Positions 35,773 to 41,953 of a DNA stretch of 64,000 nucleotides are shown here, piece after piece. The position numbers and the translations under genes are program-made. Positions within the stretch are counted from its first letter, which is position 1. The number at the start of each line of letters is the position of its first letter. The DNA comes from an uncultured Gemmatimonadaceae bacterium. Lineage in GTDB: Bacteria; Gemmatimonadota; Gemmatimonadetes; Gemmatimonadales; Gemmatimonadaceae. The stretch is from NCBI GenBank assembly GCA_963790305.1, contig CAWBOC010000005.1:576001-640000 (forward strand). Reading direction: 5' to 3'. Under the pieces are notes generated by a model. The model saw only the letters and a list, made by a program, of their open reading frames with translations, was not told where the DNA came from and did no database searches.

Positions 35773-36745
35773 GATGACGATGCGACGACTTCTCGGTGTG
35801 ATGCTGATCGCGCTCGGCTGCGCCCGCGGCGACGACAGCGGCTCCGCTACGAATGCTCGCGACGAAGGACCGCTCGTCGTTTTCAACGCCGGTAGCCTGG
35901 CGCGGCCGATCCGCGCTGCGCTCGATACTTTCGCCGTGCGCGAGGGCGTGCCGTTCGAGCAGGAGCAGGCGGGAAGTCTCGAGACGGCGCGGAAGGTCAC
36001 GGAGCTTGGACGTGTCCCGGACGTCATCGCCCTCGCCGATTACCAGATCTTTCCCCAGCTGCTGGTCCCGGAGCACACCTCCTGGTATGCGCGGTTTGCG
36101 CGCAACCGGATGGTGCTTGCGCACACCGATCGCTCGCGCCACGCCAATGTCATCACTCCGGCGAACTGGTGGCAGATCGTTCTGCGTCCCGGTGTAGAGA
36201 CGGGACACAGCGACCCCAATCTCGACCCCGCGGGATACCGCTCACTCCTCGTTATGCAGCTGGCCGAGCGATACTATCGCCAGCCGGGGCTCGCCGCTCG
36301 CCTCCGAGGGGCGATTCCGCCGCGCAACGTCCGTCCGAAGGAAATCGATCTCGTGGCGCTGCTCGAGACGGCTGAGCTCGACTATGCGTTCGAGTACGAG
36401 TCGGTTGCGCGTGGCGCGTCACTGGAGTTCGTCCCATTCCCGGACTCCGTCTCGCTCGGCAACATGAGCGACTCCGCTTTCTACGAGACGGCGATGGTGC
36501 GCACCGTAGGGCGCCGGCCGGGCGACAGCCTCACCATGCGCGGGGAGCCAATCGTCTATGCGCTATCGATTCCCCGCGGGGCGCCTCATCCGCGGCTGGC
36601 CGAGCGGTTTGTGATGTTCCTGATGTCCGAAGACGGACGGCGAGTCCTGCGCGCGAACCATCTCGACGCGCTGGACTCCGCCGTAGTCTCGGGCGACAGT
36701 GCCCCGGCCGGGCTCAGCGCGCGGCGAGCTCCGGCCGTCCCGTGA
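35773..36745 (+). CDS. tungstate/molybdate ABC substrate-binding protein (WtpA-like)
   Basis: VFNAGSL, GSLETARK, SDPNLDPAGYRS, DYAFEYES; start uncertain. Confidence 0.82.
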
Positions 36746-37595
36746 GCTGTGCGACGAGGTGACGGATCGCGACCTGCCACACGAGCGGCTGACCGGGCAG
36801 GTCCTCGCGTCGCGCGGTGCGCAGACGCTGCACGTCCTCATCGCTGATCAGCTCCTGCCCGCCGATGCTGCTGACGAGCAGCCGCGTGCGCCGTGCCAGA
36901 AGCCCTTCGGCACCGATGCGCACGGCCTTGCCGTCAGGATCGATGAGTGCGCCGGTGAGCTGCAGAACGTTCACTGGCGTCTCGAGCGACGTCAGCCAGG
37001 GGACGTTGACCGAGTAATTGGTACCGAGTAGCACCGCCTTGTCTCCGCGCCAGGATTTCTGCGTCATGCGGTAGTCGCCGATCTCGAGCGTAATAAGAAG
37101 TGCTCGCGACGCACCCGCTGCATTCAGCGCGGACCCCAGCCAGGCGGTCCATTCCCCGGAGGGACGGGCCACAGCCAAACGCATCTTCTTCTCACGATCC
37201 CCGAGCACGCCTTCCTCGGCGGTGGCGCAGTCGGCATCCGGGGCGGTCTCGCAGCTGAACATGACGTCAGGCGACCGGCCTGGTGCGGCGGATGGAGGGG
37301 CCACGCGCACACTGGCGCCTAACGAATCGAGGTAGGTGTTCATCTCGCGCAGGAGGGCGGCGATGGGGCTTCCGCTCTCGTTCGCGGGCTCGAAGATCGG
37401 CTCCTGGGTGGCGCCACGCTGGTAGGCGATGCCCAGGTGGGCGATGCGGCCGGCGGCGGTGACGGGACCGCCGGCGTAGAAGGGAGGATTCTCGAGAAAC
37501 GCGTCGCCGACACCACTGCCTATCGTGGAGCCGGCGCACGCAATGCCGGTCAAGGCGAGCGCCGCTACGGCGCCCGCACGAATCGAGGTAAGCAT
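36714..37595 (-). CDS. hypothetical lipoprotein
   Basis: Signal peptide ending IAC; protein-like composition. Confidence 0.7.
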   Translation of the reverse strand: MLTSIRAGAVAALALTGIACAGSTIGSGVGDAFLENPPFYAGGPVTAAGRIAHLGIAYQRGATQEPIFEPANESGSPIAALLREMNTYLDSLGASVRVAPPSAAPGRSPDVMFSCETAPDADCATAEEGVLGDREKKMRLAVARPSGEWTAWLGSALNAAGASRALLITLEIGDYRMTQKSWRGDKAVLLGTNYSVNVPWLTSLETPVNVLQLTGALIDPDGKAVRIGAEGLLARRTRLLVSSIGGQELISDEDVQRLRTARREDLPGQPLVWQVAIRHLVAQLTGRPELAAR

Positions 37596-37677: not shown

Positions 37678-38736
37678 GTGACGCGGCGGCGTCTGAATCG
37701 TGGACAGCGCGTCAGGATCGACGCACCCTCCCCCCGATTCCTGCTCGTGGACATCGGCTTCGAGCTCACCAATCTCTGCAACCTGCACTGCACCCACTGC
37801 ATCCGTGGGTCGCATCAGGCGACCATCGAACGGCTCGATCTGGAGCTGATCCGCCGAGTGCTCGATGAAGCCACGGCGCTCTTCGGGTCGGTCGAGGTCG
37901 TATTCACCGGTGGGGAGCCACTGGCTTCGGAGCTCTTTCCCGCTGTGGTTCGGGAGCTGGCTCAGCGAGGTGTGTCGTACCGGTTCGTCACGAATGGATG
38001 GTTGGTGCCCCGTCATCTGCCGCTGCTTCAGTCGCACAGACCTCGCTTCGTGCGCGTAAGTCTGAGCGGGGGTACCGAGGCCACGCACGACGAGCAGCGC
38101 GGGAAGGGAAGCTTCCGGCGCGCGCTCCTGGGCGCGGCGTCCGTGCTCAGCCGGGGCATGATGGCCGAGCTGTCGCTGCTCCTCACGCGGCGAAGCCGAT
38201 CCGAGATCGGCGAGGCGATCGCCGTCGCCGCTGATCTCCGCGTTCGCGCACTGCACCTCACTCTCATGCAGCCAACGCCGGAGACCGCGGCCGCCGGGCT
38301 GGACCTTTCGCCGGAGGAGTGGCGCGAAATCGCCCGGGAAGTGAACGCGATAGCACCGCACGCGATCGTTCCGGTCGTTCTCGACTACGGCGGTCCGATG
38401 CCGGTGCCGCGCGAGCGTTGCAACACGCTCGCGTCGCGTCAGCTCTACATCGACGCGCGAGGACGGGTGCCTTTCTGCTGTCAGCTGTCCCGTTATGGCA
38501 ACGGCGGGGAGCAGATCGTCGGTGATCTCAGGACGGAGTCACTGGCCGCGATCGCTGCCCGGGCTGCGAGCGCGTACGACGCGTTTCACGGCGAAACCAC
38601 CCGTCTGCACCAGATAGGGAAGCTCGATGCGCTCGATGATTTCCCCTGCATGAGCTGCGCGCGTCGGCATGGACAGACGCGCTTCCTCACCGCGTTCCCG
38701 GGCCACTCCTGGACGCAGATCGCGCACGCGTCATGA
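37678..38736 (+). CDS. radical SAM protein with SPASM/twitch-like C-terminus
   Basis: CNLHCTHC, FTGGEPL, TNG, HD-x2-RGKGSF; C-terminal C-x12-G-x-V-x2-CC and CMSC. Confidence 0.92.
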   Translation: MTRRRLNRGQRVRIDAPSPRFLLVDIGFELTNLCNLHCTHCIRGSHQATIERLDLELIRRVLDEATALFGSVEVVFTGGEPLASELFPAVVRELAQRGVSYRFVTNGWLVPRHLPLLQSHRPRFVRVSLSGGTEATHDEQRGKGSFRRALLGAASVLSRGMMAELSLLLTRRSRSEIGEAIAVAADLRVRALHLTLMQPTPETAAAGLDLSPEEWREIAREVNAIAPHAIVPVVLDYGGPMPVPRERCNTLASRQLYIDARGRVPFCCQLSRYGNGGEQIVGDLRTESLAAIAARAASAYDAFHGETTRLHQIGKLDALDDFPCMSCARRHGQTRFLTAFPGHSWTQIAHAS

Positions 38737-39495
38737 GCGTCGCGACCCGGCCCTGGGAGTGGGAGGACGTCCGAGCAACCACCGACGAAAACGGCGTGCA
38801 TCTCGCGCACGTCGCGGAGCCGGCGGAGCTCCTGCTGCGCAAAGGGCGCCTGGTGCGAGGAGCGGGGTACGATACGGCTTCGCCAACGGCACGGCGGTCA
38901 CTTGCGCGAGTCGGGGCGATTCTTCGTCTACGCGCGCGGGGCCGCTACCTGGTGCACGCCTCGGCCGTCGTCGATCCGGCCGGGGGCGCGTGGCTCCTCG
39001 CCGGCGACAGCGGCAGCGGCAAGTCCACGCTGGCCTGGGTCCTCGTCAGGCAGGGGTGGTCATTGCTCGGCGACGATGGCGTGCTCATCGAGGATGCCGA
39101 GGGGGGTCTCGTGGCCCGCGCCTGGCGCGATCCTCTGCGTGTGAGCCTCGGCCTCGCCAAGCAGTTTCCTGAGTTGCAGGCGTTGGCGCCGCGCGTCGCC
39201 GCGCGCGATCCGCGCGCTCGCGTACCGGTGGAGCGGGAGGTCGTCCGTCAGGCACCGGTGCGGAGGATTCTCCTTCTCGAGCGTTCGCAGCGCGACCGCG
39301 TGCTTCGAGTGGGCCCCGCCGTCACGCTCGCCTCGCTCGTGCGCCAGTCTCCGTGGGTGCCTCATCGACAATGAGGATGCGCCGCGTCACCTTACCGTGC
39401 TCGCGGCCACCGCGGACTCGGTGCCGGCGTTCCACCTCGCGCACACGGAGTCGCAGCTGGAGCAGTTGCCGCTCACCCTCGCCAGGCTCGCGTAG
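38733..39495 (+). CDS. HprK-related P-loop kinase; apparent +1 frameshift near 39360
   Basis: LVHASAV, GDSGSGKST, LLGDD; removing one C after SPWV continues LIDNEDAPRHL...LARLA to TAG at 39493-39495. Confidence 0.82.
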
Positions 39496-39571
39496 GCCAG
39501 CCCGTAGTGACCCCGAAGGGTATCGATTCGTCTAACCCGGATACCGGGCGACGACGCCCGCGAGGGGCACG

Positions 39572-39817
39572 ATGGGAGACATCGAGGACCTACAATCGCA
39601 CGTTAGCGGGTCGAGCGACGTGGGCGCGACACCGCGCTCGCGGCGCCCCTGGGTCGCGCCGACGCTGATGCGCCACGCCTCGCTCACGGCGCTGACGCTT
39701 CAGTATCCGGCGGGCCTCGTCGTGGATCCGAGTACCGGCGAGCTGCTCGATCCCAACAACCCCGCCGATCGCGTCAGGCTGGCCGACATCCCGGGAAGCA
39801 CGGGCTTCTTCCCGTGA
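39572..39817 (+). CDS. putative RiPP precursor peptide (81 aa) with lasso-type leader
   Basis: RRPWVAPTLMRHASLTALT fits (Y/W)xxPxL-x3-(G/A)-x5-T; GAGGGG RBS; GTGA overlap with the next gene. Confidence 0.7.
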   Translation: MGDIEDLQSHVSGSSDVGATPRSRRPWVAPTLMRHASLTALTLQYPAGLVVDPSTGELLDPNNPADRVRLADIPGSTGFFP

Positions 39818-40734
39818 CCTGGCGCGCCGGGCTCGCGCTCGCTGCCGTCCTCATCGCGAGTGGATGCGACGAGACCGGCCCGCTGGACGTCACACTCCCA
39901 GCCGTCGTATTCGTGTCAGGCACGGATCAGGATGCCGAGCTGTTTCTGTGGAGCGCGGACACGGTGACGCGCCTGACGAGCAATGCGTTCGGGGATGAGG
40001 AGCCGCACGTTGCCGCCGGCCGTCTCGTCTTCACGTCGGATCGCGACGGGAATCCCGAGGTGTACTTCTCGGATATGCGCGCCACCGCGCCGCGCCGTCT
40101 GACGACGCACACTGCGACCGATGGTGAGCCCGCACTGCATCCGGCGGGCGACCGCATCGTCTTCATCAGCATGCGCAGCGGTACGCCGCGTCTCTGGACC
40201 ATGGATACCCTCGGCGGATCGCTGGCGCCGCTCGCGACGGGCTCCGCGACTTTCTCTCCGGAGCGCGCACCGGCGTGGAGCCCGCAGGGCGATCGCATCG
40301 CCTTCACCTCGGCGCGAACGGGCACGTCGCAGGTGTTCGTCGTCGACGCGTCGGGAGGCGCTGCGGTGCAGCTGACGAGCGAGGCCGGCGGTGCGTTCGA
40401 TCCCTCCTGGAGTGCGTCAGGGACACAGATCGTCTATGCGACCAGCGCCGGCACGCCGCGCTTGCGGAGCATTCCAGCGACCGGGGGCGCGGCCGCGGAC
40501 TATGCCGTGCTTCCCGACACGGCGTTAGGCGAGCCGTCGTGCGGAGCGCATTACTGCGTCGCCGTGCGCGGTGCCTACGGAGAGGATGGCGACCTCGTCG
40601 CGTACGGGGCGCCGCGGGCAACCGGCGATGGCGTTGGGGTACCACCGATTCCACCTCCGCCGCAAACGACTGGGGTGAGAGTGCTGGTCGAGGGGGCGGG
40701 GAATGCTCGACAGCCGGCCATTGTGCCCGAGTAG
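39814..40734 (+). CDS. TolB-like PD40-repeat lipoprotein
   Basis: IASGC lipobox; FTSDRDGNPEVY, PAWSPQGDRIAF, PSWS repeats. Confidence 0.87.
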   Translation: MTWRAGLALAAVLIASGCDETGPLDVTLPAVVFVSGTDQDAELFLWSADTVTRLTSNAFGDEEPHVAAGRLVFTSDRDGNPEVYFSDMRATAPRRLTTHTATDGEPALHPAGDRIVFISMRSGTPRLWTMDTLGGSLAPLATGSATFSPERAPAWSPQGDRIAFTSARTGTSQVFVVDASGGAAVQLTSEAGGAFDPSWSASGTQIVYATSAGTPRLRSIPATGGAAADYAVLPDTALGEPSCGAHYCVAVRGAYGEDGDLVAYGAPRATGDGVGVPPIPPPPQTTGVRVLVEGAGNARQPAIVPE

Positions 40735-40741
40735 GGATTAT

Positions 40742-40881
40742 TCGTCTGAACGGCAAAGACGTCAGATATCAGAATACAGAATTCAGAATTCAGAAACGAC
40801 TACGGGGAGCCAGACTGGCTCCCCGCAGGTTTTGTCTGACATTCTGAATTCTGTATTCTGACGTCTCTGCCGTTCAGACGA
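40742..40881. repeat. CAGAATT-heptamer palindromic element
   Basis: TCGTCTGAACGGCAAAGACGTCAG..CAGAATACAGAATTCAGAAT ... ATTCTGAATTCTGTATTCTGACGTCTCTGCCGTTCAGACGA. Confidence 0.9.
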
Positions 40882-40882
40882 C

Positions 40883-41776
40883 TCACTTCGCGACGAGAAT
40901 CAAAAAGCGGGACGTCCCCCAAAACCGCTCGGGATCCGGAATCCGCAGCAGTCCGCGGAACTCCTCTTCATCGCGCTCCATCACCTCGGCGTTGTCGAGG
41001 CTCTGACGGGACACCACGGCGTAGCGCTTGGTCGAGTCCGGCAGCGGAATCTCGCGGATGTCACGGCGGTCGATCGCGGTGAAGAGCTCCGGGTCGAGCG
41101 CGCGCGCGGGCTGGAGCGTGCGTCCAATGTGCGCGATCAGGAAATTCGCGCCGCCCTCGCGCTCGACGATGCCCTTCTCGACCAGCTCATCCTCGGTGCC
41201 AACCACGTAGTAGGCGCGGTAGTACCGCTCGCCCATCACCTTCGTCTCGGTGATCAGGCTGTCCACGCGCAGGTCGAGGGCGGCGATGGTCGCCGCCTGC
41301 TCCTGCACCTTGTTGCCCAGCTCGGCGATGATGCGCTGATCATCCTCGATGCGGAGCTGAAGGGTATCGTTTTTCCCGCGAAGCTCCTGCTCGCGCTTCC
41401 GACTGTCGGCCAGCTCGGCGGCCGTCACGCGGGCGCGCTGCACGAGCGCTTCCACGCGGTCGCTGAGCTCCTTGCGCCGCACGAGCTGCTCTTCGAGCGG
41501 GCTCTCATAGTTGCGCTTCACGCGCTTCTTGGCGGGAAGACCCTTCACCGTGCGGATCTGGCTGTCGATTTTCGTCAGCAGCGAGTCGCTCTCGAAGATC
41601 GCGCGCATCAGCGAATCCTTCTGCGACGATAATGAGGTCGTGAGCGCAAGCTGGCGGTCGGTGATCGCCTGGAGGCTGTCGGCACGGGCGCGCTCTTTCT
41701 TGGTCTCGCAGCCGGCGAGGAGCGCCATCATCACGAACGAGAGGCCGAGAAGGGCAGCGGGATGCGAAGTACGCAT
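40883..41776 (-). CDS. coiled-coil lipoprotein, unknown function
   Basis: LLAGC lipobox, long heptad region, YYVVGT-x2-EL C-terminal domain. Confidence 0.8.
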   Translation of the reverse strand: MRTSHPAALLGLSFVMMALLAGCETKKERARADSLQAITDRQLALTTSLSSQKDSLMRAIFESDSLLTKIDSQIRTVKGLPAKKRVKRNYESPLEEQLVRRKELSDRVEALVQRARVTAAELADSRKREQELRGKNDTLQLRIEDDQRIIAELGNKVQEQAATIAALDLRVDSLITETKVMGERYYRAYYVVGTEDELVEKGIVEREGGANFLIAHIGRTLQPARALDPELFTAIDRRDIREIPLPDSTKRYAVVSRQSLDNAEVMERDEEEFRGLLRIPDPERFWGTSRFLILVAK

Positions 41777-41953
41777 GACAGGCAGTCTCCGGAAAAGTGC
41801 AGAAGTGACGTGGATCACAGTGCGCGAACCGTAGCGCGCATGGCGACATCACATACGATGGAGGCCGCACGAGGGTCTCAGCGCCGATTCACGCCACGCC
41901 GGAGTCGTGACGCGGAGCACGTTTCGTCCGAGGTATCGACGTACCGGCCGAGC

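What the first reader, a model, noticed from the sequence alone, without database searches (positions are those of the whole stretch)
37678..40734. Candidate new RiPP system: rSAM/SPASM + HprK-like kinase + lasso-type-leader precursor + TolB-like lipoprotein
Seen: four co-oriented genes, with ATGA (38733) and GTGA (39814) overlaps. The 81-aa ORF has WVAPTL-MRH-A-SLTAL-T, the exact spacing of the lasso/RRE leader consensus YxxPxL-x3-G-x5-T. That predicts the core QYPAGLVVDPSTGELLDPNNPADRVRLADIPGSTGFFP, with Asp at position 9 and Ser/Thr near the C-terminus. Established: SPASM rSAMs modify peptides, and HprK-like kinases phosphorylate precursors in paeninodin-type lasso clusters. Unusual: no lasso cyclase, B2 protease, RRE/PqqD or exporter is in the window. 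Inference: either a new rSAM/kinase-modified peptide class, or a satellite of a cluster elsewhere in the genome. The propeller lipoprotein could bind the product.
Basis: partly seen in the sequence, partly recalled or inferred. Interest (0 to 1): 0.78.

Follow-up and report, generated by a model that had tools for sequence, protein, structure and literature searches.

The report
Split peptide-modifying system tied to lipoproteins
This is a real, conserved four-gene cassette of Gemmatimonadota bacteria whose small peptide is likely modified by a radical-SAM enzyme and a kinase with helper genes 164 kb away, and in relatives the same kind of peptide gene lies beside, or is fused to, lipoprotein genes, which points to a likely undescribed family of modified peptides.

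Summary
The four genes, both overlaps and the leader motif are real. The 81-aa ORF is a conserved gene (102 homologs). Two corrections: the radical SAM has a one-cluster Twitch-type tail with a spare cysteine, not a full SPASM domain, and the kinase carries one extra base at 39360, most likely an assembly error. The 'missing' RRE, B2 protease and a nucleotidyltransferase lie 164 kb away on the same contig, at the site where relatives keep the whole operon. It is not a lasso peptide: no cyclase was found in 83 related loci, and Asp/Glu at core positions 7-9 is not conserved. The family occurs in 26 of 401 Gemmatimonadota genomes, always with a precursor. Most likely it makes a linear, phosphorylated peptide with a radical-made change, best guess an epimerised Ile. 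Two surprises: core cysteines come only in pairs (32 of 218 cores, none single), and precursors sit beside lipoprotein genes or are fused in front of lipoprotein signal peptides (25 of the best 150 hits). No chemistry is shown. My paper searches found no description, and the scan's look-ups showed this family on no other DNA.

The parts
37678..38736 (+). Radical SAM enzyme with a one-cluster Twitch-type C-terminal domain (C34/C38/C41; C248, C267, C268, C324, C327). The real start is probably GTG 37747.
   Evidence: Pfam Radical_SAM 8.8e-17, SPASM marginal. No NCBIfam family among the best 25 shown reaches its cut-off. Cys pattern in 217 of 219 family members. AF2 pLDDT 92.5, SPASM/Twitch-fold matches.
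38733..39495 (+). HprK-like kinase (His75, Walker A at 91-98, GDD at 113). Split by one extra base at 39360 in this assembly; 253 aa in relatives.
   Evidence: (below family cut-offs). Four contigs bridging 39360 lack the base.
39572..39817 (+). Precursor peptide, 81 aa: variable N-terminus, RRE-type leader W27-x-x-P30-x-L32...T42-L43, predicted 38-residue core Q44-P81.
   Evidence: 102 homologs; W27, P30, L32, T42, S76 invariant, I73 is Ile or Val. Silent changes exceed replacement changes.
39701..39814 (+). Predicted core peptide (38 aa, no Cys), ending in the family motif Ile-x-Gly ... Ser/Thr-x-Phe.
   Evidence: Cut site inferred from Thr at -2, in the same register as all family precursors.
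39814..40734 (+). PD40/TolB-like beta-propeller lipoprotein (lipobox Cys18); its start overlaps the precursor's stop codon.
   Evidence: Pfam PD40 2.4e-24. A propeller is present in 25 of 32 family loci.
40803..40825 (+). Terminator-like hairpin after the cassette, also scored on the other strand.
   Evidence: Consensus scan only.

Best explanation
The cassette is one half of a split gene cluster, and it likely makes a linear, leader-cleaved peptide that is predicted to be phosphorylated by the kinase and altered by the radical SAM enzyme, most likely by inverting the conserved isoleucine, and that likely acts outside the cytoplasm with the cluster's lipoproteins. Shown by sequence: the four genes; the second half (lipoprotein, RRE, B2 protease, nucleotidyltransferase) 164 kb away, at the site where relatives keep the whole operon; no cyclase in related loci. 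Inferred steps, with my odds: (1) the trans RRE binds the WxxPxL leader, 0.85. (2) The Twitch radical SAM abstracts a hydrogen from the core; most likely C-alpha epimerisation at Ile73 of the Ile-x-Gly motif with C267 or C268 as H donor, 0.4. (3) The kinase puts one or more phosphates on Ser76 or Thr77, 0.7. (4) The nucleotidyltransferase decorates that phosphate, 0.4. (5) B2 cuts after Leu43, 0.8. (6) The product reaches an oxidising compartment and works with the lipoproteins, 0.55. The confidence given is for the pathway as a whole (a non-lasso, RRE-dependent peptide modified by these enzymes), not for step 2 alone.
For: Trans half: PqqD, Transglut_core3 and NTP_transf_5 all above cut-off at L066:10740-12404. 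The genome has only two PqqD and two above-cut-off B2 matches; the other of each is in a separate lasso cluster. The trans genes are followed by an HD-domain gene and an ispG-like gene (name recalled from its sequence), the same neighbours as the one-piece cluster in L017. One-piece operons: L071, L072, L075, L076, L077. The trans RRE is 42-66% identical to RREs of one-piece operons, but 26% over 35 aa to the genome's lasso RRE. The trans nucleotidyltransferase is in 4 of 5 same-genus genomes that have the radical SAM, and its best match in G034 is the in-cassette gene. All 26 of 401 genomes with the radical SAM have a precursor match; 31 have one in all. Of 218 distinct cores, 215 have [IV]-x-[GC] and 213 have Ser/Thr in the last eight residues. 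The five-Cys tail is in 217 of 219 family enzymes; the CC pair is in 1 of 25 distant ones. EpeE, a Twitch enzyme, epimerises Ile/Val with a protein Cys as H donor (PMC13012085, passages). HprK with an RRE polyphosphorylates a Ser of a linear peptide (PMC13381572, section 7). Cys count per core: 0 in 186, 2 in 32, 1 in none, against 47.6 expected with one if independent. 12 of 13 isolated precursor copies lie next to a gene of one lipoprotein family.
Against: There are no biochemical or expression data. The fold search does not single out EpeE: SuiB Z 25.0 (rmsd 3.3, 294 aligned), anSME 23.0, SkfB 22.8, BlsE 22.3, TigE 19.2, EpeE 19.0 (rmsd 3.7, 273 aligned). The best single-sequence match among solved structures is BlsE, which acts on a nucleoside sugar. 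Gene content is patchy: among 79 loci, kinase 42, RRE 36, B2 25, nucleotidyltransferase 22; many loci are cut short, but some of 13 kb show only precursor and radical SAM. G002 (81% complete) has the cassette but no match to the trans gene. G007 (71%) has the trans genes but no radical SAM. G151 has a precursor but no radical SAM. G004's radical SAM has an in-frame TAG. Two loci hold precursor, kinase and propeller with no radical SAM found in the genome (L199, L201). No exporter is conserved: ABC ATPase hits in 5 of 83 loci. The window's own core has no Cys, so the disulfide argument rests on relatives, which are not independent. Deleting LppN changed nothing in the LPP study.
Confidence: 0.65

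Rival explanations
1. Same pathway, but the radical SAM makes an oxidative cross-link or ring (-2 Da) that closes the C-terminal loop between the Ile-x-Gly motif and the Ser/Thr-x-Phe end, or builds a cyclopropane on Ile as TigE does (TigE chemistry recalled).
For: The top fold matches are peptide cross-linking or oxidising enzymes (SuiB, anSME, SkfB). In most two-Cys cores the pair brackets the segment between the Ile motif and the C-terminal end, so these ends probably lie close together.
Against: 186 of 218 cores have no Cys, 44 have no aromatic residue and 7 have YG, so a thioether, an aryl cross-link or splicing cannot be the family-wide reaction. An invariant fifth Cys is not needed for oxidative chemistry. 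An ether link from Ser/Thr is not excluded.
Confidence: 0.22
2. The radical SAM acts not on an amino acid but on the sugar or nucleotide that the kinase and nucleotidyltransferase attach to the serine, as sugar-modifying Twitch enzymes do.
For: BlsE is the best single-sequence and Foldseek match. NeoN and PolH also use a protein Cys as H donor (PMC5682303, passages).
Against: Precursor and radical SAM are the most constant pair (67 of 79 loci), while the nucleotidyltransferase is seen in 22 of 79. With the family profile, SkfB and PqqE rank above BlsE.
Confidence: 0.15
3. The peptide is not an end product but a modifiable N-terminal gate or chaperone for lipoprotein export. In fused forms the leader would hide the signal peptide until the enzymes and B2 have acted; stand-alone precursors would serve the neighbouring lipoprotein in trans.
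For: 25 of the best 150 precursor hits are fused in front of a hydrophobic stretch and lipobox. In G325 all four precursor matches are such fusions, directly upstream of an intact enzyme set. 11 of 13 isolated copies lie directly upstream of the same lipoprotein family.
Against: Most precursors are stand-alone. Paired Cys suggest that stand-alone cores leave the cytoplasm themselves. In the 401 genomes fusions were seen only in two genomes of one genus, so they may be a lineage-specific read-through.
Confidence: 0.15
4. The precursor is a lasso peptide substrate, cyclised in trans through Asp9 by the genome's separate lasso cyclase.
For: The genome has a lasso cluster with a cyclase at G000:C9. 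The leader has lasso spacing, and Asp is at position 9 in 89 of 102 close homologs.
Against: No cyclase match in 83 loci or 79 loci (the sets overlap). His or Asn at position 9 in 13 of 102; Asp/Glu at 7-9 in only 48 of 218 cores. The lasso precursors have YxxP leaders, this one WxxP, a difference that separates pathways in PMC13381572 (section 9). The cassette has its own RRE and B2.
Confidence: 0.04

Closest known systems
Linear polyphosphorylated peptides (LPP; lppA-K-B-S-D-N, Paenibacillus alginolyticus; PMC13381572)
   Same: Discrete RRE, [Y/W]xxP leader, HprK-like kinase, NTP transferase, no macrolactam cyclase, and coexistence with a lasso cluster in the same genome.
   Different: Here the leader peptidase is of the lasso B2 type, not a signal peptidase I. 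There is a Twitch radical SAM (the paper's main text has no mention of radical SAM), no conserved ABC exporter, a WxxP leader, Ser/Thr near the C-terminus rather than at position 3, linked lipoproteins, and the phylum is Gemmatimonadota.
Paeninodin/pseudomycoidin-type phosphorylated lasso peptides (described in PMC13381572; details recalled)
   Same: WxxPxL...T(-2) leader, discrete RRE, B2 protease, HprK-like kinase and NTP_transf_5 nucleotidyltransferase.
   Different: No cyclase in related loci, no conserved Asp/Glu at 7-9, a C-terminal Ser in only 3 of 218 cores, and an added radical SAM.
Epipeptide epimerase EpeE/YydG (Bacillus subtilis; PMC13012085)
   Same: One auxiliary cluster in a Twitch domain, a spare Cys proposed here as H donor, and a conserved Ile/Val in the substrate. 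EpeE's C-x15-CC...CxxC spacing is recalled; the two papers that give it were not held.
   Different: 13-14% identity and only mid-ranked by fold (Z 19.0 against 25.0 for SuiB). EpeE is reported as leader-independent (PMC8326336, passages), whereas this system has an RRE, B2 and a kinase.
Enterococcal sex pheromones cut from lipoprotein signal peptides (PMC4173765, passages)
   Same: A peptide encoded in front of a lipoprotein's lipobox that signal peptidase II and a membrane protease could release; this applies to the fused relatives.
   Different: No RRE-type leader, radical SAM or kinase is part of those pathways as I recall them. The window's own precursor is not fused; it overlaps the lipoprotein's start codon in another frame.
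HprK-related kinase A/B and SynChlorMet cassettes (TIGR04352, TIGR04355, TIGR04249, TIGR04250/04251)
   Same: An HprK-like kinase and a PqqD-like protein with radical SAM neighbours.
   Different: All scores are far below cut-off, e.g. 38.9 against 200 bits for an intact kinase and 71.7 against 400 for ScmF.

Membership tests
Lasso peptides | [YW]xxPxL leader with Thr at -2 | tested here: met
   W27, P30, L32, T42 invariant in the homologs that cover them
Lasso peptides | RRE (B1) and B2 protease | tested here: met
   In trans at L066:10740-11389, both above Pfam cut-off
Lasso peptides | Asparagine-synthetase-like cyclase in the cluster | tested here: not met
   No match to the genome's lasso cyclase at E 1e-3 in 83 loci or 79 loci; single-sequence query; many loci are truncated
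Lasso peptides | Conserved Asp/Glu at core position 7-9 | tested here: not met
   Asp in 89 of 102 close homologs; 48 of 218 family cores
LPP (linear polyphosphorylated peptides) | Discrete RRE, HprK-like kinase and NTP transferase without a cyclase | tested here: met
   RRE and NTP transferase are in trans in this genome
LPP (linear polyphosphorylated peptides) | Signal peptidase I-type leader peptidase | tested here: inconclusive
   The conserved peptidase is B2-type and no other family recurs across genera in the clustering, but no S26 profile was run
LPP (linear polyphosphorylated peptides) | YxxPxVLxHQxIxFETxxS leader and MsbA-like exporter | tested here: not met
   The leader is WxxPxL..HASLT.LT or ..LP.LT.LT; ABC ATPase hits in 5 of 83 loci, none in the five same-genus loci
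LPP (linear polyphosphorylated peptides) | Polyphosphorylated serine | not testable with these tools
   Ser76 is invariant; needs mass spectrometry
Two-cluster SPASM radical SAM | Seven or eight C-terminal Cys for two auxiliary clusters (definition recalled; the review was not held) | tested here: not met
   Five conserved Cys
EpeE-type epimerases (epipeptides) | Twitch domain with one more conserved Cys than four ligands | tested here: met
   C-x17-19-CC-x48-60-CxxC in 217 of 219; which Cys is free was not determined
EpeE-type epimerases (epipeptides) | Closest structural kinship to EpeE | tested here: inconclusive
   EpeE Z 19.0, rmsd 3.7, 273 aligned, rank 29; SuiB Z 25.0
EpeE-type epimerases (epipeptides) | D-Ile or D-Val in the product | not testable with these tools
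   [IV]-x-[GC] in 215 of 218 cores; needs D2O labelling and chiral analysis
Sactipeptides / ranthipeptides | Cys donors in the core | tested here: not met
   None in the window's core; none in 186 of 218
Triceptides and other aryl cross-linked peptides | Conserved aromatic residue in the core | tested here: inconclusive
   Phe in 174 of 218, no aromatic residue at all in 44; the window's core has invariant Tyr45, Phe79 and Phe80
Spliceotides | Tyr-Gly motif in the core (recalled) | tested here: not met
   7 of 218 cores; absent in the window

The most novel reading that the evidence does not exclude
A new class of ribosomal peptide coupled to lipoprotein export. An RRE-guided Twitch radical SAM, kinase and nucleotidyltransferase modify a short Gly-rich core that is either co-translated beside a lipoprotein or built into the front of its signal peptide. 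The modified peptide is then released by leader and signal peptidases, or it gates the export of the lipoprotein. This would join RiPP chemistry to the signal-peptide route known from enterococcal pheromones.
Probability: 0.3. Interest if true: 0.9.

Novelty: new variant of a known kind. Interest (0 to 1): 0.72.

Why it matters
It names a testable, phylum-wide peptide family in Gemmatimonadota: 26 of 401 genomes and 218 distinct cores. It extends the recently described cyclase-free phosphopeptide pathways with a radical SAM step. The cores mostly lack Cys and often lack aromatic residues, so the radical chemistry should differ from the common thioether and aryl cross-links. It is a clear natural case of a split cluster whose RRE and protease work in trans, which cluster-by-cluster mining would miss. 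The fusion of leader and core in front of lipoprotein signal peptides has no precedent in my searches and raises the question of how such peptides are exported without a transporter.

Tried and rejected
Second precursor copy in the genome: the weak tblastn hit at C9:209376-209194 is out of frame in an aldehyde dehydrogenase-like gene and was rejected; the family profile finds one copy in G000. First read-laying: no contig bridged 39360; the second did. No RNA holder listed. Fold of the conserved N-terminal domain of the partner lipoprotein: a confident beta-sandwich model (pLDDT 84.0), no Foldseek match at E 0.001 or better, best Z 7.7, rmsd 3.0, 115 aligned, within the tool's background range; no Pfam family in 9 such proteins. 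The protein atlas did not answer. In the RRE tree the genome's lasso RRE and its C13 RRE are long branches of unsure place, so I rely on pairwise identity. Promoter scan: no sigma-70-like site on the + strand. Paper searches with no hit. One search gave two versions of one study; its passages do not describe this system. One search gave two unrelated papers, one read in passages. Three papers were not held. Earlier-finding look-ups by sequence and words gave one unrelated locus or nothing.
Full report
Observation. The window is G000:C5:576001-640000. A close homolog of the small ORF is labelled Gemmatimonadaceae. The four ORFs and both four-base overlaps are as described. Pfam gives Radical_SAM with a marginal SPASM hit, a below-cut-off HPr kinase hit, nothing for the small ORF, and PD40 for the last gene. 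The small ORF is the only one of 32,398 small ORFs in the genome to fit the strict leader pattern; 79 fit a looser one. It has 102 homologs among 104 candidates, itself included. Their first 23 residues vary, while W27, P30, L32, T42 and most of the core are fixed. Against five relatives, silent codon changes (15-21) outnumber replacements (6-11) over the last 58 codons. It is a real gene under selection.

Corrections. The kinase ORF stops early. Its last 44 codons continue in another frame, and relatives encode 253-254 aa. The cause is one extra base at 39360; it was the only split gene among the 18 G008 genes of locus L012 that matched. Four contigs from three public runs bridge the site and all lack the base; three of them differ from the window at only 4-6 other letters in 200-250. 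An assembly error is therefore most likely, though a strain-specific lesion is not excluded. The radical SAM tail has five conserved cysteines, C248, C267, C268, C324 and C327. The pattern holds in 217 of 219 distinct family sequences of at least 290 residues, while the CC pair occurs in 1 of 25 distant radical SAMs. That is one auxiliary cluster plus a spare Cys, a Twitch rather than a SPASM layout (definition recalled).

The family. The radical SAM is found in 5 of 8 same-genus genomes, each with the same four genes in the same order, and in 26 of 401 genomes of the phylum. The 79 best loci from the genome collection are all titled as Gemmatimonadota taxa or as unassigned 'bacterium'. Beside the enzyme lies a small ORF with the same leader register. 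A profile of these precursors matches 31 of the same 401 genomes, including all 26. Of the five extra genomes, G144 has the radical SAM at a contig edge; G085, G254 and G151 gave no match; G392 was not retested. The neighbours are a lasso-type PqqD/RRE, a B2 protease above its cut-off, an HprK-like kinase, an NTP_transf_5 protein, the propeller and a second lipoprotein family. Counts in 32 loci: precursor 27, kinase 24, RRE 19, B2 14, nucleotidyltransferase 17, propeller 25, second lipoprotein 15. Counts in 79 loci: 67, 42, 36, 25, 22, 42, 45. These sets overlap, many loci are cut by contig ends, and the profiles were built partly from the first set. No locus matched the genome's lasso cyclase (0 of 83; 0 of 79).

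The missing half. Profiles of the neighbours find, on the same contig, a lipoprotein, RRE, B2 and nucleotidyltransferase at C5:446390-449403, 164,275 bases before the cassette. They are followed by an HD-domain gene and an ispG-like gene, as is the one-piece cluster in L017. L076 shares the upstream genes. One-piece operons with radical SAMs 62-66% identical to the window's are L071, L072, L075, L076 and L077. The trans RRE is 42-66% identical to their RREs and 26% over 35 residues to the genome's lasso RRE. The trans nucleotidyltransferase is present in G003, G004, G005, G008 and G007, and was not found in G002 (81% complete, has the cassette), G001, G006 or G021. The five loci fetched all keep RRE and B2 in front of it. 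So in this genus the ancestral operon is split in two and both halves are mostly retained. The order of events was not tested on a tree.

What the cores say. I pooled 218 distinct cores of 8-60 residues from loci and protein hits; fusions and precursors missed by the pattern are left out, and so are the window's close homologs other than those in loci. 215 have [IV]-x-[GC], 213 have Ser/Thr among the last eight residues, 202 end in Phe or Pro, 48 have Asp/Glu at 7-9, 44 have no aromatic residue, 7 have YG. In the window this corresponds to Ile73-Pro-Gly and Ser76-Thr-Gly-Phe; the window's subfamily has a long conserved N-terminal extension of the core. Cys occurs 0 times in 186 cores, twice in 32, and never once (47.6 expected with one under independence). 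Relatedness inflates this, but the pairs occur in several registers. This suggests disulfides and an oxidising compartment, not thioether donors.

The lipoprotein link. A search of 1.84 billion representatives gave 314 hits at E 0.001 or better. Of the best 150, 26 are longer than 100 aa, and 25 of these carry leader and core directly in front of a hydrophobic stretch and lipobox Cys, judged by eye; 17 are 780-840 aa long. G325 has four and G144 three such genes in tandem, both in one genus. In G325 they are the only precursor matches and lie directly upstream of radical SAM, propeller, RRE, B2, kinase and nucleotidyltransferase. Of 13 stand-alone copies away from a radical SAM, 12 adjoin a gene of the same lipoprotein family and 11 lie directly upstream of it (read by eye). 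The genome's only member of that family is in the trans locus. Its N-terminal domain models as a beta-sandwich with no clear structural match. In the window the precursor's stop overlaps the start of the propeller lipoprotein.

Mechanism. Best reading: the RRE binds the leader, the radical SAM alters the core, the kinase phosphorylates Ser76 or Thr77, the nucleotidyltransferase may decorate the phosphate, and B2 cuts after Leu43, leaving a linear peptide that acts outside the cytoplasm. All of these steps are inferred. For the radical step I favour epimerisation of Ile73 (about 0.4). The cores offer few other conserved targets, and EpeE, a one-cluster Twitch enzyme, inverts Ile and Val using a protein Cys (PMC13012085). 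Against this, the model (pLDDT 92.5) ranks SuiB, anSME, SkfB and BlsE above TigE and EpeE, and BlsE is the best single-sequence match. A cross-link or a sugar-directed reaction remains open. Also against a fixed pathway: patchy gene content, a stop codon in G004's radical SAM, and two loci without the radical SAM.

Comparison. It works most like the LPP pathway (PMC13381572) and the paeninodin-type tailoring set, but it fails membership of both: no cyclase or conserved ring residue for lassos, and a different leader, peptidase type and exporter for LPP. The genome's lasso precursors carry YxxP and this one WxxP, the contrast that insulates pathways in that paper.

Papers seen. PMC13381572: outline and abstract, results part 1 of 4, sections 7, 9 and 12, and a term search; supplements not read, and they may list further cluster types. 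PMC13012085, PMC8326336, PMC5682303, PMC4173765, PMC12452194 and PMC8692599: passages only. The EpeE structure paper, the 2017 YydG paper and the Twitch review were not held; what I say of EpeE's ligand spacing, TigE, pseudomycoidin and the Twitch definition is recalled. No description of this system came up. The library lacks most subscription journals, where much radical SAM peptide work appears, so absence from print is not established.

Verdict. A real, conserved and apparently undescribed cyclase-free peptide system built from known parts, split over two loci here, with an unusual tie to lipoproteins. New variant of a known kind; interest 0.72.

Noticed in passing
L067:5076-12316 (G000:C9, between rpsG and fusA): A separate lasso cluster: RRE, B2, Asn-synthase-like cyclase, two YxxP precursors, HprK-like kinase, ABC transporter and nucleotidyltransferase.
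   Followed up: partly
L068:6427-10214 (G000:C13): A third HprK-like/RRE-like/radical SAM locus inside a polysaccharide region, with many broken frames.
   Followed up: no
L066:17036-20000: About 5 kb past the trans genes: two small ORFs with double-glycine-type leaders, a CAAX-protease-like gene, an HlyD-like gene and the start of a peptidase-containing ABC transporter (labels recalled from sequence). Possibly a bacteriocin-like locus.
   Followed up: no
L199:3549-7728 and L201:2821-6430: Variants without the radical SAM: a precursor with a two-Cys core, kinase and propeller, plus a nucleotidyltransferase-like gene or an RRE. L201 lies at the same HD/ispG-like site.
   Followed up: partly
L017:2257-4224 and L076:7722-9593: The nucleotidyltransferase is fused to the PD40 propeller in one reading frame, although the propeller has a lipobox elsewhere.
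   Followed up: no
L197:1-6389, L198:5442-10000, L061:2053-7041: Tandem arrays of precursor-lipoprotein fusions start right after rpoC in G144 and G325.
   Followed up: partly
L091 and L063: Precursor motif reading through without a nearby stop, in L091 into the radical SAM frame; probably assembly errors.
   Followed up: no
window 36714-37595 (-): Divergent gene with a lipobox-like start, no Pfam hit, 87-91% identical in four relatives and absent from the locus in the fifth.
   Followed up: no
window 40883-41818 (-): Coiled-coil lipoprotein close to NF052320 (Cbp1 family adhesin; 78.4 bits against a cut-off of 90), converging on the cassette.
   Followed up: no
G000:C9:207777-209277: An aldehyde-dehydrogenase-like gene split over two frames, another likely assembly indel.
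   Followed up: no
L013 (G004:C29:6448-7455): In-frame TAG in the radical SAM just after the CC pair, in an otherwise intact cassette.
   Followed up: no
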